Virus genome (UHGV): UHGV-0390922
Strand: one strand, 5' to 3'
Origin: a virus
DNA: 42,516 nt
Shown: positions 3,764 through 30,406 of the stretch, one piece after another
Layout of the letters: each line of letters opens with the position of its first letter
Numbering within the stretch: the first letter of the stretch is position 1
The notes under the pieces: model-generated
The model's input: only the letters and a program-made list of their open reading frames with translations
The model's database searches: none
Told to the model about the DNA's origin: nothing
Position numbers and translations under genes: made by a program

Positions 3764-3835
3764 TGTGGGATAGCTCAGCGGAAGAGCGACGGCCTTACAA
3801 GCCGCAGGTCACTGGTTCGATTTCGGTTCCCACGA
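3764..3835 (+). tRNA. tRNA-Val (anticodon TAC), phage-encoded, slightly atypical
   Basis: Hand-folded cloverleaf: 7-bp acceptor stem (U1.G72 wobble), U8, D-arm GCTC/AGCGGAA/GAGC with G18G19, anticodon loop CTTACAA (U33, A37), T-arm ACTGG/TTCGATT/TCGGT with a G53.U61 wobble. Discriminator A, no encoded CCA. Confidence 0.55.
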
Positions 3836-9148: not shown

Positions 9149-9485
9149 ATGCATTTTTAGGTTGTGCGACGTCGCAACAGGGAGGTGAGGCAATTGATTG
9201 AATGTATGATTCGGTGGTTTCGGCAGAGGCGCTGTCAGCACAGGTACCGTAAGCACTGGAGCCGGGAGGCTGGCGGGTATGTGCGGCGGTGCGTGAGGTG
9301 TGGAAAAATCGAATAAGTCACAGCAAGTCATAGAATTAGTCATAAGCACGCAGGCGGGGCCTGGGTGTTATTTTTATGCCTTTTTCCGGTCAGATGATGA
9401 GACCTAAAACAGTCATTCGTTTGGTGGATGGTTACACACCTATAAATAACCTAACGGCGAATCATGGAAAGAAAGGAAATATGAA

Positions 9486-10019
9486 ATGAAAACAGAAGAT
9501 TTACAGGCAAAAGGTCTGACACAGGAGCAGATCGATTATGTTATGGCCGAGTATGGCAGAGAGCTGAATGGAGTCAAGCAGGACCGCGACAATTATAAGG
9601 CGCAGCTTGCAGCAGCTCAGGCTACACTTAAAAGTTTTGAGGGCGTAAATGTGCAGGAACTTCAGGGAAAGATTACCCAGCTGACTTCTGATCTGGCGGT
9701 AAAAGAAACTGAGTACCAGAAACAGATTGCAGACAGGGATTTCAATGACCTTCTGAAGACAACAGCAGAGGGCTTTAAGCCGCGTGATCTGAAGGCTGTC
9801 ATGCCGTTCCTGGATGTCGAAAAGCTGAAGGCCAGCAAGAACCAGGAGGCAGATATTAAGGCAGCTCTGGATGTTGTAAAGAAGGATAATGCTTATCTGT
9901 TTCAGGATATCAATATCCCCAGGGTGGTTTCCACTACGCCTGGTCCGGGCGGTGCGGCAGCAGAGGACACAAAAGCCAGAGCGAATGCAGCATTAAGAAA
10001 CATTTTAGGAAGAGAATAA
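9486..10019 (+). CDS. phage scaffolding protein
   Basis: 177 aa, acidic and alpha-helical, N-terminal LTQEQIDYVMAEYG. Directly upstream of the capsid gene. Confidence 0.6.
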   Translation: MKTEDLQAKGLTQEQIDYVMAEYGRELNGVKQDRDNYKAQLAAAQATLKSFEGVNVQELQGKITQLTSDLAVKETEYQKQIADRDFNDLLKTTAEGFKPRDLKAVMPFLDVEKLKASKNQEADIKAALDVVKKDNAYLFQDINIPRVVSTTPGPGGAAAEDTKARANAALRNILGRE

Positions 10020-23235: not shown

Positions 23236-23700
23236 ATGAAAGCTAAAGCAATCGAATACACAATAAGTGCAGCTATCGGAGCGTTTTTCAGTTTCTTTGG
23301 AGTGCTGGCAATCCCGTTAGCTTTGCTGATCCCCTGCAATATCATTGACTACTTTACAGGGATGGCAGCATCAAAGGTGAATGGGGAAAAGATTACAAGC
23401 GAAAAGTCATTTGCGGGTATTGTGAAAAAAGTAATGATGTACATACTGATTTTTGTGGGATATGGAGTAGACTGTATGATTTCCTACGTAGCAGCCAACT
23501 TACATATTGAAATGGCGTTTCCGCTGCTGTTCTCCGCGATGGTGGCGTCCTGGCTGGTAATCAATGAGTTGATCAGTATTACGGAGAATTGTGAGGCGAC
23601 AGGAGTGGCAATTCCTGTATTAAGTCCGGTATTACGTTTTATAAAGAAAAAGATTGAAACGGTAGTGGATACCCCAGAAGAGGGAATAAAGAAAGAATAA
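23236..23700 (+). CDS. holin (holin 4_1 / TcdE-like family)
   Basis: 154 aa, three hydrophobic helices, WLVINELISITEN motif typical of this family. Directly upstream of the lysis region. Confidence 0.7.
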   Translation: MKAKAIEYTISAAIGAFFSFFGVLAIPLALLIPCNIIDYFTGMAASKVNGEKITSEKSFAGIVKKVMMYILIFVGYGVDCMISYVAANLHIEMAFPLLFSAMVASWLVINELISITENCEATGVAIPVLSPVLRFIKKKIETVVDTPEEGIKKE

Positions 23701-23762
23701 GTAGAGTTGTGCGACGTCGCAACGCAGACAGGCCCAGGGGATTCCTGAGGTCTATACTTTGA

Positions 23763-23791
23763 TTGCGGCATAATTGCTGCTGTGCTATAAT
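23763..23791 (+). promoter_or_regulatory. promoter of Fst-like toxin 1
   Basis: TTGCGG, 17-bp spacer, TGcTATAAT extended -10. The 5' UTR contains CCTCC 18 nt upstream of the GGGAGG SD, a possible SD-sequestering hairpin. Confidence 0.5.
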
Positions 23792-23839
23792 GCTAACGTT
23801 ACCGCCTCCGAATCTGGTGACAGAAGGGAGGTGTTTCAT

Positions 23840-23926
23840 TTGGATCACATTCTATCGTTTATCGTCGCTGTTGCGGCTGGTGTAGCCTGCCACTACATCA
23901 TCAAATGGTTGGACGGCGACAAGTAA
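23840..23926 (+). CDS. Fst/Ldr-like type I toxin peptide (28 aa)
   Basis: TTG start 6 nt after GGGAGGTG. LDHILSFIVAVAAGVACHYIIKWLDGDK. Hydrophobic helix plus KWLD charged tail resembles Fst (APIFVGLVLEMISRVLDEED). Confidence 0.5.
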   Translation: MDHILSFIVAVAAGVACHYIIKWLDGDK

Positions 23927-23960
23927 TCGGTAACCAGCCTACAGATGCCTGACTGTATAA

Positions 23961-23999
23961 AATCGGAAGAACCCCCAGAAGGTGTGAGCTTCTGGGGGT
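23961..23999. terminator. bidirectional intrinsic terminator shared by toxin mRNA and antisense RNA
   Basis: GAACCCCCAGAAG gtgtgag CTTCTGGGGGTTC, T-run downstream and A-run upstream. Confidence 0.6.
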
Positions 24000-24036
24000 T
24001 CGTTTGTTTCATTTGGAAACATCCTATCGTTTGCCT
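23961..24036 (-). ncRNA. putative antitoxin sRNA (RNA II-like) of TA locus 1
   Basis: Convergent - strand promoter at 24043..24071. Transcript would cross the direct-repeat copy at 23995..24030 (about 85% identical to the toxin translation-initiation region) and end at the shared terminator. This is the par/Fst architecture. Confidence 0.45.
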
Positions 24037-24042
24037 ACTGGC

Positions 24043-24071
24043 ATTATAGCATATGCAGATTTTAAATGCAA
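24043..24071 (-). promoter_or_regulatory. promoter of antitoxin sRNA 1
   Basis: On the - strand: TTGCAT, 17-bp spacer, TATAAT. Confidence 0.5.
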
Positions 24072-24134
24072 GATACCTGAAAATGATTTTTGTCCGGTTT
24101 TGTGCCGGGCTTTTTTATTTGGAGGCAAAGACAT

Positions 24135-24926
24135 ATGGAAAACGCAGTAAAGAAACTCATTGATCAGGCCGCCCATTGGGATGGCTATCTGGAAAAGAAA
24201 AGCAACGCCCAGCTGGATGATTTTACGGCCAATGCCGGCAGCGGCAATTTCACTTGCTTTGCCAGGGACTATAAGACACATACCGGTCAGAACCTGCAGG
24301 CCCAGCCCTGGTGTGCCATGTTCGTATCAGAGGTATTTGTGCAGGCATTTGGGCTGGAGGCGGCTAAGAAACTTCTGGGCGGCAGCCTGTACCATTATTG
24401 CCCCACAGGGGTCAACCAGTTTAAAAAGGCAGGCCGGTGGGCCGCGGTGCCGGAGCCTGGGGCAGTGATCTTTTTTACCAACGGCCAGAGAGCCTATCAT
24501 ACAGGGATCGTTACAGAGGTGACGGCAACGCGGATCAAGACCATTGAGGGTAATACGTCCGGTGCATCCGGTGTGATTGAAAACGGCGGCGGGGTGTGCC
24601 GGAAGGCTTACAGCCGGTCTTATGGGAAAATTCTTGGCTACGGGCTGCCGGACTGGTCGATTGTCAGCCAATCAGAATACGTATTAGGCTGGCACCATGA
24701 CAGTAACGGATGGTGGTACGCAGACACGTCCCACACCTATTATAAGTCCTGCTGGCAGGTGATTAACCATCACAAGTATTATTTTAACCAGGATGGCTAC
24801 GCATTGACAGACTGGCATCAGATCGATGGGAAGTGGTATTATTTTGAGTCGGCGGCAGGCCACCCGTTGGAATGTGCTTTGTATGTAACCGACGCCAGCG
24901 GGGTACAGGGGCCGGGTGAGTTTTAA
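24135..24926 (+). CDS. endolysin: CHAP/amidase_5-like Cys-His peptidase plus CW_binding_1 repeats
   Basis: Catalytic Cys in QPWCAMFVSEVF and His in AYHTGIVTEV. C-terminal GWHHDSNGWWYAD / DGKWYYFESAAG choline-binding-type repeats. GGAGG RBS. Confidence 0.75.
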   Translation: MENAVKKLIDQAAHWDGYLEKKSNAQLDDFTANAGSGNFTCFARDYKTHTGQNLQAQPWCAMFVSEVFVQAFGLEAAKKLLGGSLYHYCPTGVNQFKKAGRWAAVPEPGAVIFFTNGQRAYHTGIVTEVTATRIKTIEGNTSGASGVIENGGGVCRKAYSRSYGKILGYGLPDWSIVSQSEYVLGWHHDSNGWWYADTSHTYYKSCWQVINHHKYYFNQDGYALTDWHQIDGKWYYFESAAGHPLECALYVTDASGVQGPGEF

Positions 24927-25013: not shown

Positions 25014-25697
25014 ATGGAGTTTATGTTAGTAGAAATTACACAGAGAAACAACGAAGAGGTTTTAACCGCCAGCAGCAGACAGGTAGCAGATAAATTCGAG
25101 AAGGAGCACAGGCACGTACTGGAATCCATTGATAAAATGAAAGAACAGTTGAGTACAGCCGAATTTTCGGCTCTATTCATGGAAGGTAAATATGTGGCGT
25201 CTAATGGGAAGAAGAACAAAGAGTATCTCATGACCCGTGACGGATTCTCACTCCTGGTGATGGGGTTCACCGGAGAAAAGGTGTTGCGCTGGAAACTGGA
25301 CTACATTAAGGCCTTCAATGAAATGGAGAAGGAGCTGAAACGCCTGTATTCAGAGAGACAGAAGTGGGAGATTGAGAGGCAGAAGGGTATCCTGGTGCGT
25401 CACATACTGACCGACACCATTAAAATGAAAGTGACCGACAGTCCTCATAAGAAATTCATGTACCCCAATTACACCAAGCTTATCTACAAGACCATCTTCG
25501 GCAAGACCATGAAGGAACTACAGGAGCAGTATGGGGTGAAGGGGAAGGAGAGTATTCGGGAATATGTGACGGCGGACGAGCCTAAAATGATTGAGGACAT
25601 GGAAATGCTTGTGAGCAGCCTGATAAGCTGCGGCTGGGGGTATGACCAGATCAAGGGATTCATCCAGGAGAACTCGGCGAAGATGTTGGCGGGTTAA
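25014..25697 (+). CDS. phage regulatory protein Rha family
   Basis: VLTASSRQVADKFEKEHRHVLESID...LMTRDGFSLLVMGFTGEKVLRWKLDYIKAFNEME matches the Rha N-terminal domain. Confidence 0.7.
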   Translation: MEFMLVEITQRNNEEVLTASSRQVADKFEKEHRHVLESIDKMKEQLSTAEFSALFMEGKYVASNGKKNKEYLMTRDGFSLLVMGFTGEKVLRWKLDYIKAFNEMEKELKRLYSERQKWEIERQKGILVRHILTDTIKMKVTDSPHKKFMYPNYTKLIYKTIFGKTMKELQEQYGVKGKESIREYVTADEPKMIEDMEMLVSSLISCGWGYDQIKGFIQENSAKMLAG

Positions 25698-25903
25698 GGT
25701 ACTGTGGGAGCTTCCGCCACAGAAGGAAGAATGTATTGTTATCCTTTGAATCCAGATGTCGATTTATTCTGTTAGACTGGTGCCTGGATTAGGACGGGGT
25801 GTTGCGGTGGCCTGGACTCATTGAGTAAAAAATATATGGCGAAGTAAAAGCAGTTATGGTATAATCTGGATGTTGTCCTACCGATACCCGGCAACGGGAG
25901 GAG

Positions 25904-26011
25904 GTGATCGTCATCGAAGCATTGTTTACCTTTATTATTTCTGTCGGAGCAGGTGTGGCTTGCCACCTCATCTGTAAATGGCTAGACAGAAAAGAAAAGG
26001 ACAACAAATAG
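25904..26011 (+). CDS. Fst/Ldr-like type I toxin peptide, paralogue 2 (about 30-35 aa)
   Basis: ...EALFTFIISVGAGVACHLICKWLDRKEKDNK. Start uncertain (GTG 25904 abuts the SD; TTG at 25922 is possible). TGgTATAAT extended -10 at 25857..25865. Confidence 0.45.
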   Translation: MIVIEALFTFIISVGAGVACHLICKWLDRKEKDNK

Positions 26012-26046
26012 CCTAGTGGGTGCTTTGCCACTATAAAAGAAAAGAG

Positions 26047-26111
26047 GAAGCCCTCAACTGTGGTGCAACACGGTTGGGGGCTTCACTCTTTTGTCATCGA
26101 AATACTGCTTA
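26047..26111 (-). ncRNA. putative antitoxin sRNA of TA locus 2
   Basis: Terminator GAAGCCCtCAAC...GTTGgGGGCTTC, then a direct-repeat copy (gtcatcgaaatactgcttacctttt). The convergent promoter is nearly identical to that of locus 1. Confidence 0.45.
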
Positions 26112-26117
26112 CCTTTT

Positions 26118-26146
26118 GCCTACTGGCATTATAACATATGCAATTC
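26118..26146 (-). promoter_or_regulatory. promoter of antitoxin sRNA 2
   Basis: On the - strand: TTGCAT-17-TATAAT. Surrounding ~45 nt (tgcctactggcattata.catatgca) is conserved with locus 1. Confidence 0.5.
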
Positions 26147-26159
26147 TGAAATGCAATAT

Positions 26160-26595: not shown

Positions 26596-27786
26596 CTATT
26601 CGATTTGATTTAAAATATCAATCGTATGTGCGGCCATGCGAGGGGTAGCATGGCTGTATATATTAAGAGTAATATCAATATGTTTGTGCCCTAATCTTTT
26701 CTGAACATCTTTTATATCGGCGCCGGCCTCCAGCAGCATAGTTGCATGAGTATGCCTGAGGGAATGGTAGTCAAAATCTTTAAAGCCAAGATTGTAATGG
26801 ATAACACGGCAACAGTGCTGCATAACTCTGGGTTGAATATAAGTGCCGTTTTCACGGCAATTTACCATATTGATAGGCTTTCCGTGCCCATTGGCATTAA
26901 GAACGTGATTATCATCTATATAGAGCTGAGTGTAATATTGTCCATAAAATTCCTTTGCCTTTGCCTGATGATTATATGCGTTACGCAGCAGGCTGAGAGT
27001 CTTGCCATCTAATTCAATCGTGCGAAAGCTATCATATTTTGGGTTGCTGAATACCCAGGAGCCATTTGTGTTCTGAATCTGCTGATTAACACTTAAAGTG
27101 CTGTTTTTGAAATCGATATCGTCCCAGGTAAGTGCAAATGCTTCCCCGAGCCGTAAGCCGCAGCGATATGCAAGCTGCAGGGGGATATGGCAGGAATGTC
27201 CTTCCGGGAATCTGCTGATAATGGTGTTCCATTCTTCGGTGGATATAGAAGTACGGTTCTTTTTTCGAGAAGGTATCTGGGAAGTTGCCCTTTTTGGTGG
27301 TAGTTTTGTACTTTTGGCAGGATTGTATTTAATGAATTGCATAGGCTCTACAGCATAGTCGAGAGCACCTGTCAGAAGTCCTTTGAGCACGGATAGTGTA
27401 TTTCGGCTATACCCTGCATTGAATTTATCATTTATGAAACCCTGTATAATGGCAGGGGTCAGAGATTTTAAATAATAGCTTCCCAGAACCGGAGTGATGT
27501 GAAGAGATATTTTTTTCTTATAATTCAAATAGGTATCTATTTTGAGATTTGTTTTGCAATATTCTTCCAACCAAAGCTCATAGAAATCAGATACAGATAT
27601 CTCAGACGGTACAAAGTGAGATCCGGCGTTATCATACTCCGCCTTTGCCTGTGTTCCGGCGGCCAGAGCTTCCGCTTTAGTGCGGTATCCGCCCTTGCTG
27701 ATGGAATTACGCTTGCCGTTGATACGCGCGCCCTCAAAAGACCATTCCCAGGTCGATCCACGTTTGCGAGTTCTTAATTGTCCCAT
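26596..27786 (-). CDS. int: tyrosine-type site-specific integrase
   Basis: C-terminal RLGEAFALTWDDID...HSLRHTHATMLLEAG...LGHKHIDITLNIYSH (R..HxxR..Y catalytic signature). Start at ATG 27786, 7 nt after GGAGG. Confidence 0.85.
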   Translation of the reverse strand: MGQLRTRKRGSTWEWSFEGARINGKRNSISKGGYRTKAEALAAGTQAKAEYDNAGSHFVPSEISVSDFYELWLEEYCKTNLKIDTYLNYKKKISLHITPVLGSYYLKSLTPAIIQGFINDKFNAGYSRNTLSVLKGLLTGALDYAVEPMQFIKYNPAKSTKLPPKRATSQIPSRKKNRTSISTEEWNTIISRFPEGHSCHIPLQLAYRCGLRLGEAFALTWDDIDFKNSTLSVNQQIQNTNGSWVFSNPKYDSFRTIELDGKTLSLLRNAYNHQAKAKEFYGQYYTQLYIDDNHVLNANGHGKPINMVNCRENGTYIQPRVMQHCCRVIHYNLGFKDFDYHSLRHTHATMLLEAGADIKDVQKRLGHKHIDITLNIYSHATPRMAAHTIDILNQIE

Positions 27787-28026
27787 AATCATTCCTCCTT
27801 AATTTGTTGCGACGTCGCGCATTTTTGGGTACCAAAATACACCTGTACAGGTGCACGGAGGTATGGTACAATATGGGTGTTCAGATTATATTGTATTGGC
27901 CTCCGGGCCTGTACAGAAATTTATTTAAAGCCGTTCCTGTTGGCGCAGGGGCGGTTTTTATCTTTGAAGCGATGATAATAATAGCAATACTAAATGTGGT
28001 CTCGCTAGTTTGAACTTATGTGGGGA

Positions 28027-28947
28027 CTATTGTATCCACTCTCCGTTCTTATTGACTCTGTAACCATCGGGAGTGGTAGTATCTTCTAACATAGCTCCAT
28101 TGTGATCCATAAAATAATACGCATTGTTGATTAAATTCCACCCAGTTACCATTTCACCGTTTGACTTTAAGTAATACCATTTTCCTTCAACTTTCTTCCA
28201 ACCTGTTATCATATTTCCTTCAGTATCAAATAGATACCACTTGTCTTGGATATATGCCCATTGTGACGTTGCCATTAAATTATTACTTAATCTAAGGTGC
28301 CAATTATTATTTTTGTGTTCCCATTGCCCTTCGTATATATGGGGGCCTTTTATAATTAGACCATTATCCCAAATTGCAGACGATGAACTAGAAGAACTGT
28401 TGTATTCTGGTTCAGAATATCCAGAATAAACAGTTGGGATAATTCGGATTTTATTTGAATCTATCCAGCAGAATCCATTGGGGTTTGTATCATAATCAAT
28501 GATAACAGAAACATAGCATTGTCCCTCTTCGCCGTATCTATTTGATGGAGTTCCTGCTATTGCTGATTTAAAATCCATACGTCCATTCAATCCAGATGGG
28601 CTATCATAAATACCTACTTTTATTGATATCCCATCTGGATCAGGAAGGCAATTACGAATATAGGAGCGGACGGAGTTTTTTGTGTTAGCAACAGACATAG
28701 AAATTCCATCATTTTCAAGGGTCTGTAATTTCTCTTTGCATATTTCAATAGTTTCATTAAACAGTATCTCTAAATGATCAGTTTCGGTTACATCTGTATA
28801 TTTACCAGACGGTACTTCTACTACATCTGCATTTGAAGGTGTCATTGTGCCTGCTCCAAAAGAAGATAAAGTAAAAAGCGCAGAAAACCCTACAGTTAAA
28901 ATCGTTTGGGAAAAGGTTTTTAAGTTACTTGTTTTCTTTATGCTCAT
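28027..28947 (-). CDS. secreted protein with C-terminal cell-wall-binding (CW_binding_1) repeats; moron
   Basis: Signal peptide MSIKKTSNLKTFSQTILTVGFSALFTLSSFGAG. C-terminal WYLFDTEGNMITGWKKVEGKWYYLKSNGEMVTGW repeats. GGGAGGA RBS. AT-rich. Sits between the repressor and int in the same orientation. Confidence 0.6.
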   Translation of the reverse strand: MSIKKTSNLKTFSQTILTVGFSALFTLSSFGAGTMTPSNADVVEVPSGKYTDVTETDHLEILFNETIEICKEKLQTLENDGISMSVANTKNSVRSYIRNCLPDPDGISIKVGIYDSPSGLNGRMDFKSAIAGTPSNRYGEEGQCYVSVIIDYDTNPNGFCWIDSNKIRIIPTVYSGYSEPEYNSSSSSSSAIWDNGLIIKGPHIYEGQWEHKNNNWHLRLSNNLMATSQWAYIQDKWYLFDTEGNMITGWKKVEGKWYYLKSNGEMVTGWNLINNAYYFMDHNGAMLEDTTTPDGYRVNKNGEWIQ

Positions 28948-28982
28948 AGTATCCTCCCTTTTATTAAAACGCCAGAGGCGAT

Positions 28983-30236
28983 TCAATATATTACTTTTCC
29001 GATTACTTTCCCCATACAAACCACATTGTCGTTTTCACGTATGGGAATATTTTTATATTCCTTATTTTTGGAAATAAGTTCCTTTTCGCCTAATTCTTTA
29101 ATAAAAGCATCCCCATTCACTATAAACACGCCAATATCTCCAACATACATTTCAGCATCCCTTTGTACCAGAGCAATGTCCTCATTGAAAAAATCAGGTT
29201 CCATGCTGTCACCATTCACATCAATAGCAAAATCAGCCGCTTCGTACTCTGGCAGAGCCGGAAGCTCTATTTCGTCCTCTGCCTCATTTCCAAGAATAAA
29301 GATCCCTGTTCCTGCGGATGCGCCGGCCCGGAAGTAAGGGAGGGCAATAATCTTGCTTTCCTGCTTAGGGTGAAATTCAACAATGGTGGCAGAAGTTGGG
29401 GACTGGATGTACTTATATCCTTGTTCTTCTTCCATTTTTTGAACTGCCAAAAGGCTGTTAGAGTAGTCAATAACCTTCTTTTTGTTAAGATCTGAAAGCT
29501 GTTCGTAGTTTTCCATGAGTTTTTTTGCCCCACCATAGAATTTAAGAAGATTTTGTGCCGGTTTAATGACTTTCTCGTCAGACGCTTCTTTGCCAGAGCA
29601 GGATTCATCAAATCTTGTCAATCCCATAAGATAAGCGGGAGTTGTTTCAAGAACATGAGCAAATTCAAATACCTTACTTTGAACTATGTCATTTGTCCCA
29701 TTTTCTATTTTAGCTATAGTTGTTTTACTTTTGTAGCCAAGCTTTACTGCAAGTTCTTCTTGTGTCATTCCAAGTTCTTCACGTCTTGCGCGTATTCTCT
29801 TTCCTATTTCTGGCATATTGGAATCTCCCGTCTCATGCAATTCAGATAGCTGTAGATACATCTTTTCGAAGACTTTTGATGCACGCTTCGATACTTCTGG
29901 CAGAGTCTGTTTTAAGGCTTCTTGTTCTTCAGCTGTCAAGTCATAATTATTATTTTGTAATTTTTTTAATGCAGAATTAAAAGGACAGGTAGTAGGTGTT
30001 TCATTAAAATTGATTGTTTTTGCTCGTTCCATAGGAACGTCTGCACCCATAAGCCATGCTTCATTAACATTTAACGCTTGCGCTAAGAGAAAAATATTAT
30101 TCTGTTTTGGCTCATACCGGCCAGAAAGGTATGAACTTAGAGCACCTTTGTTTATGCCAGTTTTTTCAACGACATCGGCTTGTCGTAATCCTCTAATAGT
30201 CATCCCTTCTTTAAGCCTATCAGCTAGTGTCTTCAT
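28983..30236 (-). CDS. CI-like repressor: two XRE-type HTH domains plus S24 (LexA-like) peptidase
   Basis: Two HTH segments (LRQADVVEKTGINKGALSSYLSG and MTQEELAVKLGYKSKTTIAKIENG). C-terminal GDSMEP...K peptidase S24 motif. GGAGGT RBS. Confidence 0.8.
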   Translation of the reverse strand: MKTLADRLKEGMTIRGLRQADVVEKTGINKGALSSYLSGRYEPKQNNIFLLAQALNVNEAWLMGADVPMERAKTINFNETPTTCPFNSALKKLQNNNYDLTAEEQEALKQTLPEVSKRASKVFEKMYLQLSELHETGDSNMPEIGKRIRARREELGMTQEELAVKLGYKSKTTIAKIENGTNDIVQSKVFEFAHVLETTPAYLMGLTRFDESCSGKEASDEKVIKPAQNLLKFYGGAKKLMENYEQLSDLNKKKVIDYSNSLLAVQKMEEEQGYKYIQSPTSATIVEFHPKQESKIIALPYFRAGASAGTGIFILGNEAEDEIELPALPEYEAADFAIDVNGDSMEPDFFNEDIALVQRDAEMYVGDIGVFIVNGDAFIKELGEKELISKNKEYKNIPIRENDNVVCMGKVIGKVIY

Positions 30237-30406
30237 TTGGAATACCTCCATTAACTCCATATTAGCATAAATGTTCAGAAAACACAACAATCAAATCAGA
30301 TAAACCAACAAAAAGTTTTGAAAACTAAAAACAAGTATTGACAAGAGAGAAGACGGGTGCTAAAATCATGTTGTTTAGATAACTAAACGAAAGCGAGGTG
30401 ATAGAG
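30237..30406. promoter_or_regulatory. divergent repressor/cro promoter-operator region
   Basis: + strand TTGACA-17-TAAAAT at 30338..30366. - strand TTGTGT-17-TAATAT. Near-palindromic AAAGTTTTGAAAACTAAAAAC at 30311..30331, repeated after cro at about 30612..30632. Confidence 0.5.

What the first reader, a model, noticed from the sequence alone, without database searches (positions are those of the whole stretch)
23759..24075. Fst/par-like type I toxin-antitoxin locus between holin and endolysin
A 28-codon ORF (LDHILSFIVAVAAGVACHYIIKWLDGDK) resembles Fst-family toxins: a hydrophobic helix followed by a KWLD charged tail. It has an extended -10 promoter, and an anti-SD (CCTCC) sits upstream of its GGGAGG SD. 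It is followed by a strong bidirectional terminator. Beyond the terminator lies a direct-repeat copy of the toxin translation-initiation region (gtttcatttgga..ctatcgttt). Beyond that, a convergent - strand TTGCAT-17-TATAAT promoter. This is the RNA I/RNA II layout of the pAD1 par locus, where a short antisense RNA pairs at the direct repeats and at the terminator. A type I TA inside a lysis cassette is unusual. It could act in prophage retention or abortive infection, or in timing lysis.
Basis: partly seen in the sequence, partly recalled or inferred. Interest (0 to 1): 0.8.

Follow-up and report, generated by a model that had tools for sequence, protein, structure and literature searches.

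The report
Fst/par-type toxin–antisense RNA module
Between the holin and endolysin genes of a temperate gut-Clostridia phage sits a small membrane-toxin gene that is probably silenced by a convergent antisense RNA. It belongs to the known Fst/par "type I toxin-antitoxin" family, has a second independent copy 2 kb away, and recurs at this spot in many related phages.

Summary
Window 23763-24071 contains these parts:
- an extended -10 promoter
- a Shine-Dalgarno (SD) site masked by an anti-SD
- a 28-codon ORF
- a perfect 13-bp bidirectional terminator
- two direct repeats of the translation-initiation region placed just after the terminator
- a convergent TTGCAT-17-TATAAT promoter

Predicted toxin-mRNA/antisense duplexes are -37.7 and -32.5 kcal/mol for cognate pairs. 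Cross pairs and shuffles give about -12 to -13.

Across 141 related loci the convergent promoter is kept in 140. Each locus's repeats match its own initiation region (duplex -36.8 versus -18.4 kcal/mol for non-cognate pairs).

The toxin mRNA matches Rfam RF02442 (SpF66). That RNA maps to the Streptococcus pneumoniae Fst-A/B locus, where Fst-B was shown to be toxic and to have an antisense RNA. Profile comparison links the peptide to Fst/PepA1/Ldr. Curated Fst protein models do not detect it.

This is a new member of a known kind. The added points are:
- the module recurs, co-oriented, between holin and endolysin (three holin families by three endolysin families)
- it is swapped as a cassette
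- the two copies in this phage are predicted not to cross-pair

Its function (prophage retention, defence or lysis help) is untested.

The parts
23763..23791 (+). Locus 1 toxin promoter: -35 TTGCGG (23763-23768), 17-nt spacer, extended -10 TGcTATAAT (23783-23791)
   Evidence: Sequence. TGnTAnnnT is kept in most of 141 related loci, usually 55-57 nt upstream of the start codon.
23798..24012 (+). Locus 1 toxin mRNA (RNA I equivalent, about 210 nt). The 5' end GUUACCG (23798-23804) pairs with CGGUAAC (23928-23934). Anti-SD 23805-23809 pairs with the SD 23826-23831.
   Evidence: Full-length match to Rfam RF02442 SpF66, 40.9 bits (gathering score 42), E 1.4e-8; relatives pass the gathering score. 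Six-helix model: 90.9% of cells paired versus 36-57% in slid controls; 200 compensatory cells versus 63±12 in shuffles. MFE -77.9 kcal/mol, z -3.8.
23840..23926 (+). Locus 1 toxin ORF: TTG start, 28 aa, (M/L)DHILSFIVAVAAGVACHYIIKWLDGDK
   Evidence: 162 homologues found and 873 cluster representatives. pN/pS 0.23 for core codons 6-26. A family member is predicted as a single helix, pLDDT 88.5.
23832..23860 (+). DRa (23832-23844, spans the start codon) and DRb (23847-23860, codons 3-7): target of the antisense RNA
   Evidence: duplex -37.7 kcal/mol versus -12.9±2.9 for shuffles (0 of 500 as low).
23969..24001 (.). Bidirectional intrinsic terminator shared by both RNAs: 13-bp perfect stem, 7-nt loop
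   Evidence: Stem co-variation across 67 loci (helix 6).
24005..24032 (+). DRa' (24005-24017) and DRb' (24019-24032): repeat copies that, read from the - strand, form the 5' tail of the antisense RNA
23960..24036 (-). Predicted antitoxin RNA (RNA II equivalent, about 77 nt): largely open 5' tail plus terminator hairpin
   Evidence: Ends inferred from the promoter and terminator. Fold. The homologous S. pneumoniae locus gives a 65-75 nt antisense RNA on Northern blot (PMC2887945).
24043..24071 (-). Antitoxin promoter: TTGCAT (24071-24066), 17 nt, TATAAT (24048-24043)
   Evidence: TTGnnn-17-TATAAT is present in 140 of 141 related loci, with a perfect TATAAT in 138 and a 17-nt spacer in 139.
25857..25865 (+). 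Locus 2 toxin promoter: extended -10 TGgTATAAT
25873..26094 (+). Locus 2 toxin mRNA. The 5' UUGUCC (25873-25878) pairs with GGACAA within GGACAAC (25999-26005), a compensatory variant of the locus 1 helix.
   Evidence: Rfam RF02442, 20.6 bits, E 0.008. Alignments A1 and A6.
25904..26011 (+). Locus 2 toxin ORF: 35 aa from GTG 25904 (MIVIEALFTFIISVGAGVACHLICKWLDRKEKDNK). The family-equivalent start would be ATC 25913. Contains SxxxG and KWLD motifs.
   Evidence: Weak hit to phrog_9421 (E 2.4e-4).
25910..25933 (+). Locus 2 repeat in the initiation region (GTCATCGAAGCATTGTTTACCTTT)
   Evidence: Duplex -32.5 kcal/mol versus -13.1±2.8 for shuffles. Cross-pairing with locus 1 gives -11.9 and -13.0.
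26047..26084 (.). Locus 2 bidirectional terminator
26040..26156 (-). Locus 2 antitoxin gene: promoter TTGCAT (26156-26151), 17 nt, TATAAT (26133-26128); repeat copy at 26093-26116; predicted RNA about 87 nt (26126 to 26040)
23236..23700 (+). Context: holin (PF05105 Phage_holin_4_1)
   Evidence: E 7.5e-24.
24135..24926 (+). Context: endolysin (CHAP domain plus choline-binding repeats), preceded by a second + strand terminator at 24092-24110

Best explanation
Both loci are type I toxin-antitoxin modules of the Fst/par kind. The steps below are inferred from sequence and comparison unless marked otherwise.

1. A constitutive extended -10 promoter makes a toxin mRNA of about 210 nt.
2. That mRNA is held translationally silent in cis. 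An anti-SD pairs with the SD, and the 5' end pairs with the 3' UTR just after the stop codon. Co-variation supports both helices.
3. A convergent promoter makes an antisense RNA of about 75-85 nt. It shares the bidirectional terminator. Its open 5' tail is complementary to two repeats that span the toxin start codon and codons 3-7, so pairing should block ribosome loading.
4. The product is a 28-35 aa single-helix membrane peptide with a conserved small-xxxG motif, Cys-His, and Trp followed by an acidic or charged tail. By homology with Fst, Fst-Sm and S. pneumoniae Fst-B, it should damage the membrane when made.
5. If the antisense RNA is the less stable partner, as in par, then loss of the element or a shut-off of transcription releases the toxin.

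The most likely role is retention of the prophage, and of the plasmids and satellites that carry relatives, by addiction. I put this at about 0.45. Abortive-infection defence is about 0.2 and help with lysis about 0.15.

The two copies in this phage have different pairing sequences. They are predicted to act independently.
For: Anatomy.

Paralogue with the same layout but different repeats.

Cognate-only duplexes:
- locus 1: -37.7 kcal/mol
- locus 2: -32.5 kcal/mol
- cross pairs: -11.9 and -13.0
- shuffles: about -13±3, with 0 of 500 as low as the cognate values

Family-wide evidence from 141 unique loci:
- Antisense promoter kept in 140.
- Own-repeat score 12.7, versus 7.0 for cross-locus pairs and 6.6 for shuffles.
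- Duplex -36.8 versus -18.4 kcal/mol; 95% of cognate pairs fall beyond the cross-pair 5th percentile; 99 distinct initiation-region sequences.

mRNA structure co-variation.

The ORF is coding: pN/pS is 0.23 in the core and 0.66 in the repeat zone.

Link to an experimentally studied locus:
- RF02442 hits at 40.9 bits in the window and 42.5-102.9 bits in relatives.
- F66 lies between SP2168 and SP2169 (PMC3395615). Read as fcsR and adcA (my gene assignment), these are the genes Fozo et al. give as flanking Fst-A/B.
- At that locus a 65-75 nt antisense RNA was detected, and Fst-B was toxic in E. coli (PMC2887945).

Peptide similarity to Fst/PepA1/LdrD by hhalign: probability 88% and E 3e-6, and 69% and E 4.5e-5 for the Lachnospiraceae clade alone. 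Re-run in my own script, the clade-only score was 22.3 versus a null of 7.6±1.8, with 0 of 200 shuffles as high.

Single helix, pLDDT 88.5.

Carriers are typical of an addiction module:
- prophage ends next to integrases
- small plasmids of 2.4-7.3 kb
- satellite phages
- chromosomes

Precedent for type I modules stabilising a clostridial prophage: PMC7699646.
Against: - No expression, toxicity or RNA-stability data exist for this clade. Transcript ends are inferred.
- The curated Fst models and a PDB sequence search do not detect the peptide.
- Locus 1 lacks the Pro/Asp/Ser/Thr of the family's xXXXG motif. In Fst(pAD1) the Pro is essential for toxicity (PMC7472228).
- The strict co-orientation with, and position inside, lysis cassettes is not predicted by a pure addiction role.
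- The 160 sampled loci are the closest relatives in each collection, not an unbiased sample.
Confidence: 0.82

Rival explanations
1. The module is a working part of the lysis programme rather than, or as well as, an addiction module. In lysogens the antisense RNA keeps the peptide off. After induction, late transcripts reading out of the holin gene run through the co-oriented toxin gene. They collide with and titrate the antisense RNA. The depolarising peptide is then made and triggers or advances holin firing, or lets endolysin out on its own.
For: - The module lies between holin and endolysin in the window and in at least 8 further cassettes, combining three holin families (PF05105, PF16079, PF04531) with three endolysin types (CHAP, Phage_lysozyme, Peptidase_M15_4).
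- Among about 130 non-redundant neighbours on each side, 12 upstream are holins, about 17-23 upstream are endolysins and about 22 downstream are endolysins.
- No holin or endolysin family appears among the families listed for the minus-strand neighbours.
- No terminator is predicted between the holin stop and the toxin gene.
- Precedent in another toxin family: hokW-sokW raises Sp5 phage release about two-fold (PMC8621323).
Against: - The module is dispensable for the cassette. CHAP-endolysin relatives of 75% identity (L178) and of 62% or lower lack it; 72 of the 80 endolysin-relative loci fetched lack it.
- The same module occurs with its own promoters on small plasmids, in satellites and in chromosomal non-phage contexts. 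In the window it also sits next to the integrase (locus 2).
- Co-orientation with the late operon is usual for phage morons in general (general knowledge, not tested here).
Confidence: 0.15
2. The module is a prophage-encoded abortive-infection or superinfection defence. An incoming phage shuts off host transcription, the short antisense RNA decays, the toxin is translated, and the infected lysogen dies before the invader completes its cycle.
For: - The architecture would respond to transcription shut-off (inference).
- The pairing core is diverse and swapped as a cassette (99 distinct initiation regions; L176/L177). This is expected under conflict between elements.
- There are two non-cross-pairing copies per phage.
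- hok-sok is reported to reduce T4 plating (cited in PMC8621323).
Against: No direct evidence. Diversification of the pairing core is equally expected from competition between addiction modules. The PADLOC defence library was not searched.
Confidence: 0.2
3. The + strand transcript is a non-coding regulatory sRNA, as its Rfam entry 'SpF66 sRNA' implies, and the 28-codon ORF is not translated.
For: Rfam files RF02442 as Gene; sRNA. The RNA has conserved structure.
Against: - The peptide core is under purifying selection (pN/pS 0.23).
- An SD with at least 4 of 5 core matches precedes the chosen start in 163 of 170 loci, and ATG, GTG and TTG starts interchange at the same position.
- KWLD and Gly are invariant across the clades aligned.
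- The S. pneumoniae homologue was toxic when expressed (PMC2887945).
Confidence: 0.03

Closest known systems
S. pneumoniae Fst-A/Fst-B loci (Fozo et al. 2010), whose toxin mRNA is Rfam RF02442 SpF66 / srn502
   Same: - RNA-level homology over the full transcript.
- Peptide of about 30 aa ending in CKWLDG plus a charged tail (consensus).
- 3'-convergent antisense RNA of 65-75 nt.
- Repeats spanning the start codon.
- Loci occur in pairs.
   Different: - The host clade is Lachnospiraceae and their phages, not streptococci.
- The transmembrane motif is A/S/TxxxG followed by a conserved Cys-His, rather than DxxxG.
- The streptococcal loci lie in a fixed chromosomal site (fcsR-adcA). This clade is largely on prophages, plasmids and satellites.
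par of Enterococcus faecalis plasmid pAD1 (Fst, RNA I/RNA II)
   Same: - Convergent promoters.
- DRa/DRb repeats covering the initiation region.
- A shared bidirectional terminator.
- A 5' structure that masks the SD, plus a helix involving the 5' end.
- A short single-helix toxin with a charged C-terminus (PMC7472228, compared).
   Different: - No detectable match to PF13955 or NF033608.
- No Pro in the motif.
- Trp is present here, whereas Fst(pAD1) has Val at that position.
- The partner of the 5' end is the 3' UTR directly after the stop codon.
- A loop U-turn (YUNR) as the first contact point was not tested.
Fst-Sm/srSm of Streptococcus mutans
   Same: A chromosomal par-like locus with DRI/DRII over the start codon, a toxin mRNA of about 200 nt and an antisense RNA of about 70 nt (PMC3543317).
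   Different: Fst-Sm has the APUU(A/V)GUU motif. It has no phage or lysis-gene context.
Clostridioides difficile prophage type I modules (CD0977.1-RCd11 and others)
   Same: Type I modules on prophages of a clostridial host, shown to help keep phiCD630-1 in the cell (PMC7699646).
   Different: A different toxin family: about 50 aa with a Lys-rich tail, model NF047374. Among the peptides scanned, only the streptococcal SpF66 peptide hit that model, at 14.4 bits against a cut-off of 60. The RNA layout also differs.
hokW-sokW of EHEC prophage Sp5
   Same: A prophage type I module whose toxin is made after induction and raises phage release (PMC8621323). This is the precedent for the lysis-helper reading.
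   Different: Hok family, Gram-negative host, with a mok/sok 5'-overlap mechanism. The passages read do not place it between holin and endolysin.

Membership tests
Fst/Ldr superfamily of type I toxins (Fozo 2010; Weaver 2020) | Short peptide (about 27-35 aa) with one hydrophobic transmembrane helix | tested here: met
   28 and 35 aa. AlphaFold model of the locus 2 peptide, built with the family alignment: one helix, residues 3-33, pLDDT 88.5.
Fst/Ldr superfamily of type I toxins (Fozo 2010; Weaver 2020) | [quoted passage not shown] | tested here: met
   K-W-L-D is invariant in alignments A2 and A3 and is followed by GDK, SDRKDNK or RKEKDNK tails. hhalign places this Trp on the Trp of PepA1/Ldr.
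Fst/Ldr superfamily of type I toxins (Fozo 2010; Weaver 2020) | P/D/S/T-xxx-G(C) motif inside the helix | tested here: inconclusive
   The Gly is invariant. Locus 2 has SVGAG (SxxxG), bajarodino virus 15 has TVTAG (TxxxG), and the streptococcal relatives have DVIAG/EVIAG. Locus 1 and most of its clade have AVAAG (AxxxG), which is outside the listed set. A Cys follows at G+3, not G+1.
Fst/Ldr superfamily of type I toxins (Fozo 2010; Weaver 2020) | Recognised by the curated family models (Pfam PF13955 Fst_toxin; NCBIfam NF033608 type_I_tox_Fst) | tested here: not met
   No hit for either window peptide at E up to 10.

Scores against NF033608 (cut-off 26 bits):
- Fst(pAD1): 34.7 bits
- PepA1: 58.3 bits
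- LdrD, an accepted superfamily member: 13.8 bits, so it also fails
- SpF66 peptide: 18.9 bits (E 1e-3)
- Javan542 peptide: 12.3 bits
Fst/Ldr superfamily of type I toxins (Fozo 2010; Weaver 2020) | Profile-level sequence similarity to bona fide members | tested here: met
   hhalign against an alignment of PepA1, Fst(pAD1) and LdrD: probability 88%, E 3e-6, 28 columns for A2; 69%, E 4.5e-5, 20 columns for the Lachnospiraceae-only A3. In my own hhalign run the A3 score was 22.3, versus 7.6±1.8 (max 13.9) for 200 column-shuffles. They were checked against the curated models, where each hit its own family model.
par-type (RNA I/RNA II) locus organisation | Convergent promoters, with toxin mRNA and antisense RNA sharing a bidirectional terminator | tested here: met
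   for the window. 140 of 141 related loci keep TTGnnn-17-TATAAT on the opposite strand just beyond the repeats. Transcripts themselves were not observed.
par-type (RNA I/RNA II) locus organisation | Direct repeats (DRa/DRb) present in the initiation region and again beyond the terminator, giving antisense complementarity over the start codon | tested here: met
   the matches are locus-specific, and cognate duplexes are about 18-25 kcal/mol more stable than non-cognate ones.
par-type (RNA I/RNA II) locus organisation | Intramolecular structures in the toxin mRNA that mask the SD and involve the 5' end | tested here: met
   Anti-SD/SD helix 98% paired; 5'-end/3'-UTR helix 97% paired, with compensatory changes. 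Both are present in the window's MFE fold.
par-type (RNA I/RNA II) locus organisation | Toxin toxic on expression; antisense RNA less stable than the toxin mRNA | not testable with these tools
   Needs experiments. Known only for homologues (PMC2887945, PMC3543317).
Rfam RF02442 SpF66_sRNA | Covariance-model score at or above the gathering score of 42 bits | tested here: inconclusive
   Window locus 1: 40.9 bits, full length, E 1.4e-8. Locus 2: 20.6 bits. Relatives pass: L004 (same peptide as the window) 42.5; L030 51.3; L052 52.2; L036 61.7; Streptococcus L002 102.9.
C. difficile type I toxins (NF047374) and TxpA/BsrG-type 'holin-like toxins' | Match to the family model | tested here: not met
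   No hit for the window peptides in NCBIfam or Pfam at E up to 10.

The most novel reading that the evidence does not exclude
The Fst-type module has been recruited into the lysis cassette as a regulated trigger. The toxin gene is always co-directional with holin and endolysin, and the antisense promoter faces the late operon. Late read-through transcription after induction would therefore override the antisense RNA. The depolarising peptide would then set off the holin, or release endolysin without it, tuning lysis time. In the lysogen the same module would act as an addiction or defence device. This would explain why the module sits exactly between holin and endolysin in cassettes built from three holin and three endolysin families.
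Probability: 0.15. Interest if true: 0.7.

Novelty: new member of a known kind. Interest (0 to 1): 0.4.

Why it matters
The kind of system is textbook. Three points may be useful.

1. A large clade is essentially unannotated. It has at least 568 loci in species-representative genomes, 135 in IMG/VR and 873 cluster representatives. No Pfam or NCBIfam model detects it, and its mRNA is filed in Rfam as a streptococcal "sRNA". Annotation pipelines for gut Lachnospiraceae and their phages therefore miss a potentially lethal gene and its antisense RNA.

2. The module is a natural set of RNA-RNA pairs, many of them probably non-cross-reacting. There are 99 distinct pairing cores among the 141 loci, two copies predicted not to cross-pair in one phage, and a clean cassette swap between the two conserved promoters. 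This offers material for studying how antisense specificity diversifies.

3. The module recurs, co-oriented, between holin and endolysin. That makes the question of whether a type I toxin helps phage lysis directly testable in Gram-positive phages. So far this has been shown only for hokW-sokW in E. coli.

Tried and rejected
- Pfam, NCBIfam and PHROGs scans of the two peptides gave nothing useful. The only hits were a sub-threshold XapX match and a weak hit to phrog_9421 of unknown function.
- A PDB sequence search with family profiles found no Fst or PepA1 hit.
- The search for homologous proteins refuses queries under 40 aa. I used the 50-aa extended ORF instead.
- The look-up of encoding contigs on P0001 found nothing on record.
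- A literature search for "SpF66" was swamped by the malaria vaccine of the same name. The supplements of Fozo 2010 are not held, so I could not read the C. bolteae sequence.
- RNAalifold on alignment A6 returned only a partial structure, with a competing 5'-end/SD pairing. I tested my own six-helix model explicitly.
- I considered that the antisense RNA might also mask the endolysin SD, because a third DRa-like copy (TTTTTTATTTGGA) lies at 24111-24123. I rejected this: the resemblance is not kept in L003 or L007, which have the same cassette. It is explained by a terminator T-run next to an SD.
- I considered that the module might be essential to the cassette. I rejected this because 72 of the 80 CHAP-endolysin relative loci fetched lack it.
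- No fold search was run. A lone helix would match anything.
Full report
**1. Observation**

- Toxin promoter: extended -10 TGCTATAAT at 23783-23791, with a weak -35 TTGCGG 17 nt upstream.
- Anti-SD CCTCC at 23805-23809.
- SD GGGAGG at 23826-23831.
- ORF: TTG start at 23840, 28 codons ending at 23926.
- Terminator: a perfect 13-bp hairpin (23969-23981 with 23989-24001) followed by a T-rich tail.
- Two direct repeats of the initiation region lie immediately after it: TGTTTCATTTGGA (23832 and 24005, 13/13) and ACATyCTATCGTTT (23847 and 24019, 13/14).
- Minus-strand promoter: TTGCAT-17-TATAAT at 24071-24043.

The generic promoter scan lists neither promoter, because both -35 boxes match TTGACA at only 3 of 6 positions. 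Their support is comparative (section 3).

**2.

About 2 kb downstream, at 25857-26156, lies a paralogue with the same parts in the same order.
- Extended -10 TGGTATAAT.
- SD GGGAGGAGG.
- A 35-codon ORF (MIVIEALFTFIISVGAGVACHLICKWLDRKEKDNK).
- A hairpin at 26047-26084.
- A 24-nt repeat of the initiation region (25910 and 26093, 83% identical).
- The same block TTGCCTACTGGCATTATArCATATGCA...AAATGCAA, which carries the minus-strand promoter.

The repeat sequences differ between the two loci, yet each matches its own initiation region.

Predicted duplexes between the initiation region and the antisense 5' tail:

| Pair | kcal/mol |
|---|---|
| Locus 1, cognate | -37.7 |
| Locus 2, cognate | -32.5 |
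| Dinucleotide shuffles | about -13 ± 3 (0 of 500 as low as cognate) |
| Cross pairs | -11.9 and -13.0 |

So the two modules are predicted to be independent of each other.

**3. Family-wide test**

A search with the 50-aa extended ORF found 162 homologues. None has a Pfam domain, and the core F[IL]VAVAAGVACHYIIKWLD is nearly invariant. Pattern scans confirmed 135 loci in IMG/VR. Most of the 80 listed genome contigs are labelled Lachnospiraceae or related gut Clostridia, such as Lachnoclostridium, Blautia, Dorea, Enterocloster, Roseburia and Mediterraneibacter. A profile search of 1.84 billion representatives gave 873 hits at E ≤ 1e-3.

On 141 unique loci with enough flanking sequence:
- The opposite-strand TTGnnn-17-TATAAT is present in 140, with a perfect TATAAT in 138 and a 17-nt spacer in 139.
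- TGnTAnnnT is found upstream in most loci, usually 55-57 nt before the start codon.
- Each locus's initiation region matches its own downstream region. The mean best-segment score is 12.7, versus 7.0 for unrelated loci and 6.6 for shuffles.
- Cognate duplexes average -36.8 kcal/mol versus -18.4 for non-cognate pairs. 95% of cognate pairs lie beyond the non-cognate 5th percentile.
- There are 99 distinct sequences at positions +4 to +21.

This is co-variation between two sites about 170 nt apart. It is what an antisense interaction predicts.

The ORF is coding. pN/pS is 0.23 for codons 6-26 and 0.66 for codons 2-5, which lie in the repeat. ATG, GTG and TTG interchange at the same start position, behind an SD.

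**4. Toxin mRNA structure**

On a 67-sequence alignment I tested a six-helix model.
- 5' end with the 3' UTR just after the stop codon.
- Anti-SD with SD.
- A hairpin inside the coding sequence.
- The Trp-Leu codons with the 3' UTR.
- A 3'-UTR hairpin.
- The terminator.

The model has 90.9% of cells paired, versus 36-57% when the partners are slid. It has 200 compensatory cells versus 63 ± 12 in shuffles (0 of 500 as high). The alignment shows that locus 2, L001 and L036 carry compensatory versions of the 5'/3' helix: GUUGUCC/GGACAAC and GUUGCC/GGCAAC.

The window's own minimum-free-energy fold contains these helices (-77.9 kcal/mol, z -3.8). The predicted antisense RNAs have a largely open 5' tail and a terminator hairpin.

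These features parallel the SD-masking stem-loop and the 5' helix of par RNA I (PMC7472228).

**5. What it is related to**

Locus 1's + strand from 23798 to 24012 matches Rfam RF02442 (SpF66 sRNA) over the full model. The score is 40.9 bits, just under the gathering score of 42, with E 1.4e-8. The match starts 7 nt after the -10 box. Relatives pass the threshold: L004 (same peptide as the window) 42.5, L030 51.3, L052 52.2, L036 61.7, and a Streptococcus satellite phage 102.9.

The Rfam consensus encodes MSLILELVLTIIADVIAGIILYFVCKWLDGKE.

F66 lies between SP2168 and SP2169 in S. pneumoniae TIGR4 (PMC3395615). I read these as fcsR and adcA, the genes Fozo et al. (2010) give as flanking the tandem Fst-A/Fst-B genes. 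At that locus they detected a 65-75 nt antisense RNA and showed that Fst-B is toxic in E. coli (PMC2887945). The neighbouring F67/srn503 is annotated as Fst family in PneumoBrowse (PMC12323649).

Weaver's review defines the superfamily by two features: a Trp between the helix and a charged tail, and a P/D/S/TxxxG motif. It notes a DxxxG clade in S. pneumoniae.
- The window peptides have the Trp (KWLD) and the Gly.
- Locus 2 has SxxxG.
- Locus 1 has AxxxG.

The curated models PF13955 and NF033608 do not detect the window peptides. They do detect my positive controls, and they hit the streptococcal bridging peptides weakly, at 18.9 and 12.3 bits. LdrD, an accepted superfamily member, also fails NF033608.

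Profile-profile comparison with PepA1/Fst/LdrD gives 88% probability (E 3e-6) for the mixed alignment. For the Lachnospiraceae clade alone it gives 69% (E 4.5e-5). In both, Gly and Trp are in register. In my own hhalign run the clade-only score was 22.3. That exceeds all 200 column-shuffled controls (7.6 ± 1.8).

[quoted passage not shown] So a Lachnospiraceae branch was known in silico. I found no experimental work on it.

**6. Context**

The window is a temperate phage.

| Coordinates | Strand | Feature |
|---|---|---|
| 23236-23700 | + | holin (PF05105) |
| 23763-24071 | | TA locus 1 |
| 24135-24926 | + | endolysin (CHAP plus choline-binding repeats) |
| 25014-25697 | + | Rha |
| 25857-26156 | | TA locus 2 |
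| 26596-27792 | - | integrase |
| 28983-30290 | - | CI-like repressor |

The location is not peculiar to this phage. Among about 130 non-redundant neighbours on each side of sampled family loci:
- Downstream: Phage_lysozyme 14, CHAP 4, Peptidase_M15_4 4.
- Upstream: holins 12 (three Pfam families).
- Upstream endolysin domains: Amidase_2 8, VanY/M15 7, glucosaminidase 4, GH25 2, CHAP 2.

Checked one by one, holin-TA-endolysin sandwiches combine three holin families (PF05105, PF16079, PF04531) with three endolysin types (lysozyme, M15 peptidase, CHAP).

No holin or endolysin family appears among the families listed for minus-strand neighbours. Those are mostly integrases, resolvases and repressors. 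So the toxin gene is co-oriented with the lysis genes. It often marks the junction with the lysogeny module.

Other members lie:
- directly after the endolysin at the prophage end
- in non-phage chromosomal sites
- on plasmids of 2.4-7.3 kb
- on small circles labelled Inovirus
- in streptococcal satellite phages

These samples are the closest relatives per collection, so the proportions are indicative only.

**7. Accessory and modular**

Of the 80 loci fetched for CHAP-endolysin relatives, only 8 have the module upstream. One relative at 75% identity (L178) lacks it, and has a small putative holin ORF ending about 80 nt before the endolysin gene.

L176 and L177 have a 98-99% identical endolysin. 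Their flanks are nearly identical to the window's, including both promoters. But they carry a different core: peptide MTEFVVSLLTTILGGVACHYIIKWLDSGDDDN with its own matching repeat. The pairing core is therefore exchanged as a unit between the two conserved promoters.

**8. Mechanism and role**

Supported by sequence and comparison:
- the two convergent transcription units
- the locus-specific complementarity over the start codon
- the cis-masking structure
- a conserved coding peptide predicted as one helix

Inferred from homologues:
- membrane toxicity
- translational block by the antisense RNA
- an unstable antisense RNA

For the biological role I favour addiction of the prophage or plasmid. 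This is supported by the carriers and by the C. difficile precedent (PMC7699646). Abortive-infection defence and help with lysis are live alternatives. The lysis idea fits the co-oriented position inside lysis cassettes, and has a precedent in hokW-sokW (PMC8621323). Against it are the module's dispensability and its occurrence outside phages.

**9. Open points**

- How the endolysin is transcribed is unclear. It lies behind two + strand terminators, 23969-24001 and 24092-24110.
- The meaning of the conserved GATACC beyond the antisense -35 is unknown.
- Which codon starts locus 2 is uncertain. GTG 25904 is only 2-3 nt from the SD core. The family-equivalent position is an ATC at 25913.

**10. 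Verdict**

This is a new member of a known kind: a Lachnospiraceae/phage branch of the Fst/par type I toxin-antitoxin family. The clade is poorly annotated, and its position in lysis cassettes recurs without explanation. Interest is moderate.

Noticed in passing
window 24092-24110: A second + strand intrinsic terminator (GTCCGGTTTTGTGCCGGGC followed by TTTTTTATTT) ends about 10 nt before the endolysin SD. The endolysin therefore lies behind two terminators with no visible + strand promoter. The hairpin is kept in the CHAP-type cassettes (L003, L007, L086, L130, L176). It is absent in the lysozyme-type ones, where the endolysin ribosome-binding site follows the antisense -35 within about 10-20 nt.
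   Followed up: partly
L176 1080-1520 (and L177): The flanks and both promoters are nearly identical to the window, and the endolysin is 98-99% identical. The toxin/antisense core is a different allele with its own matching repeats. This is a clean cassette swap between the two promoters.
   Followed up: partly
window 25904-25915; also L115, L141: At the family's usual start position, locus 2 has an Ile codon (ATC 25913). The only canonical start, GTG 25904, lies 2-3 nt after the SD core. Two other loci also lack a canonical start at that position. This may mean non-canonical or deliberately weak initiation.
   Followed up: no
window 24066-24080 and the equivalent position in related loci: The sequence ...TGCAAGATACC... 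is conserved, so GATACC lies just beyond the antisense -35 box in every locus printed, whatever the flanking gene. It could be an UP-like element or a binding site.
   Followed up: no
window 9388-9453 (+) and 3764-3835 (+): The Rfam GP20-b cis-regulatory motif (44.1 bits, above its gathering score) lies just upstream of ORF 9486-10019. A tRNA gene lies at 3764-3835.
   Followed up: no
L036, L038, L110, L113, L119, L129, L146: Two copies of the module lie within about 0.4-1.7 kb of each other on one contig. This echoes the tandem Fst-A/Fst-B of S. pneumoniae and the two copies in this window.
   Followed up: partly
plasmids NZ_CP128649.1 (4.5 kb, Mogibacterium neglectum), HG796411.1 (2.4 kb), HM560024.1 (7.3 kb); bajarodino viruses 15/29/68 (L001): The same peptide family occurs on very small plasmids, where it is unannotated, and on 7-8.5 kb circular elements from rodent faeces labelled Inovirus. 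In bajarodino virus 15 the full par-like layout is present with its own repeat sequence, and no gene is annotated under the match.
   Followed up: partly
window 28027-29019 (-) and 28983-30290 (-): A protein with choline-binding repeats, but no recognised catalytic domain, lies next to a 435-aa repressor with two HTH domains and an S24 peptidase domain. The two longest ORFs overlap by 37 nt.
   Followed up: no
L104 4001-4264: The toxin stop codon is lost, giving an 87-aa read-through ORF across the terminator and the antisense gene. This is probably a decayed copy.
   Followed up: no
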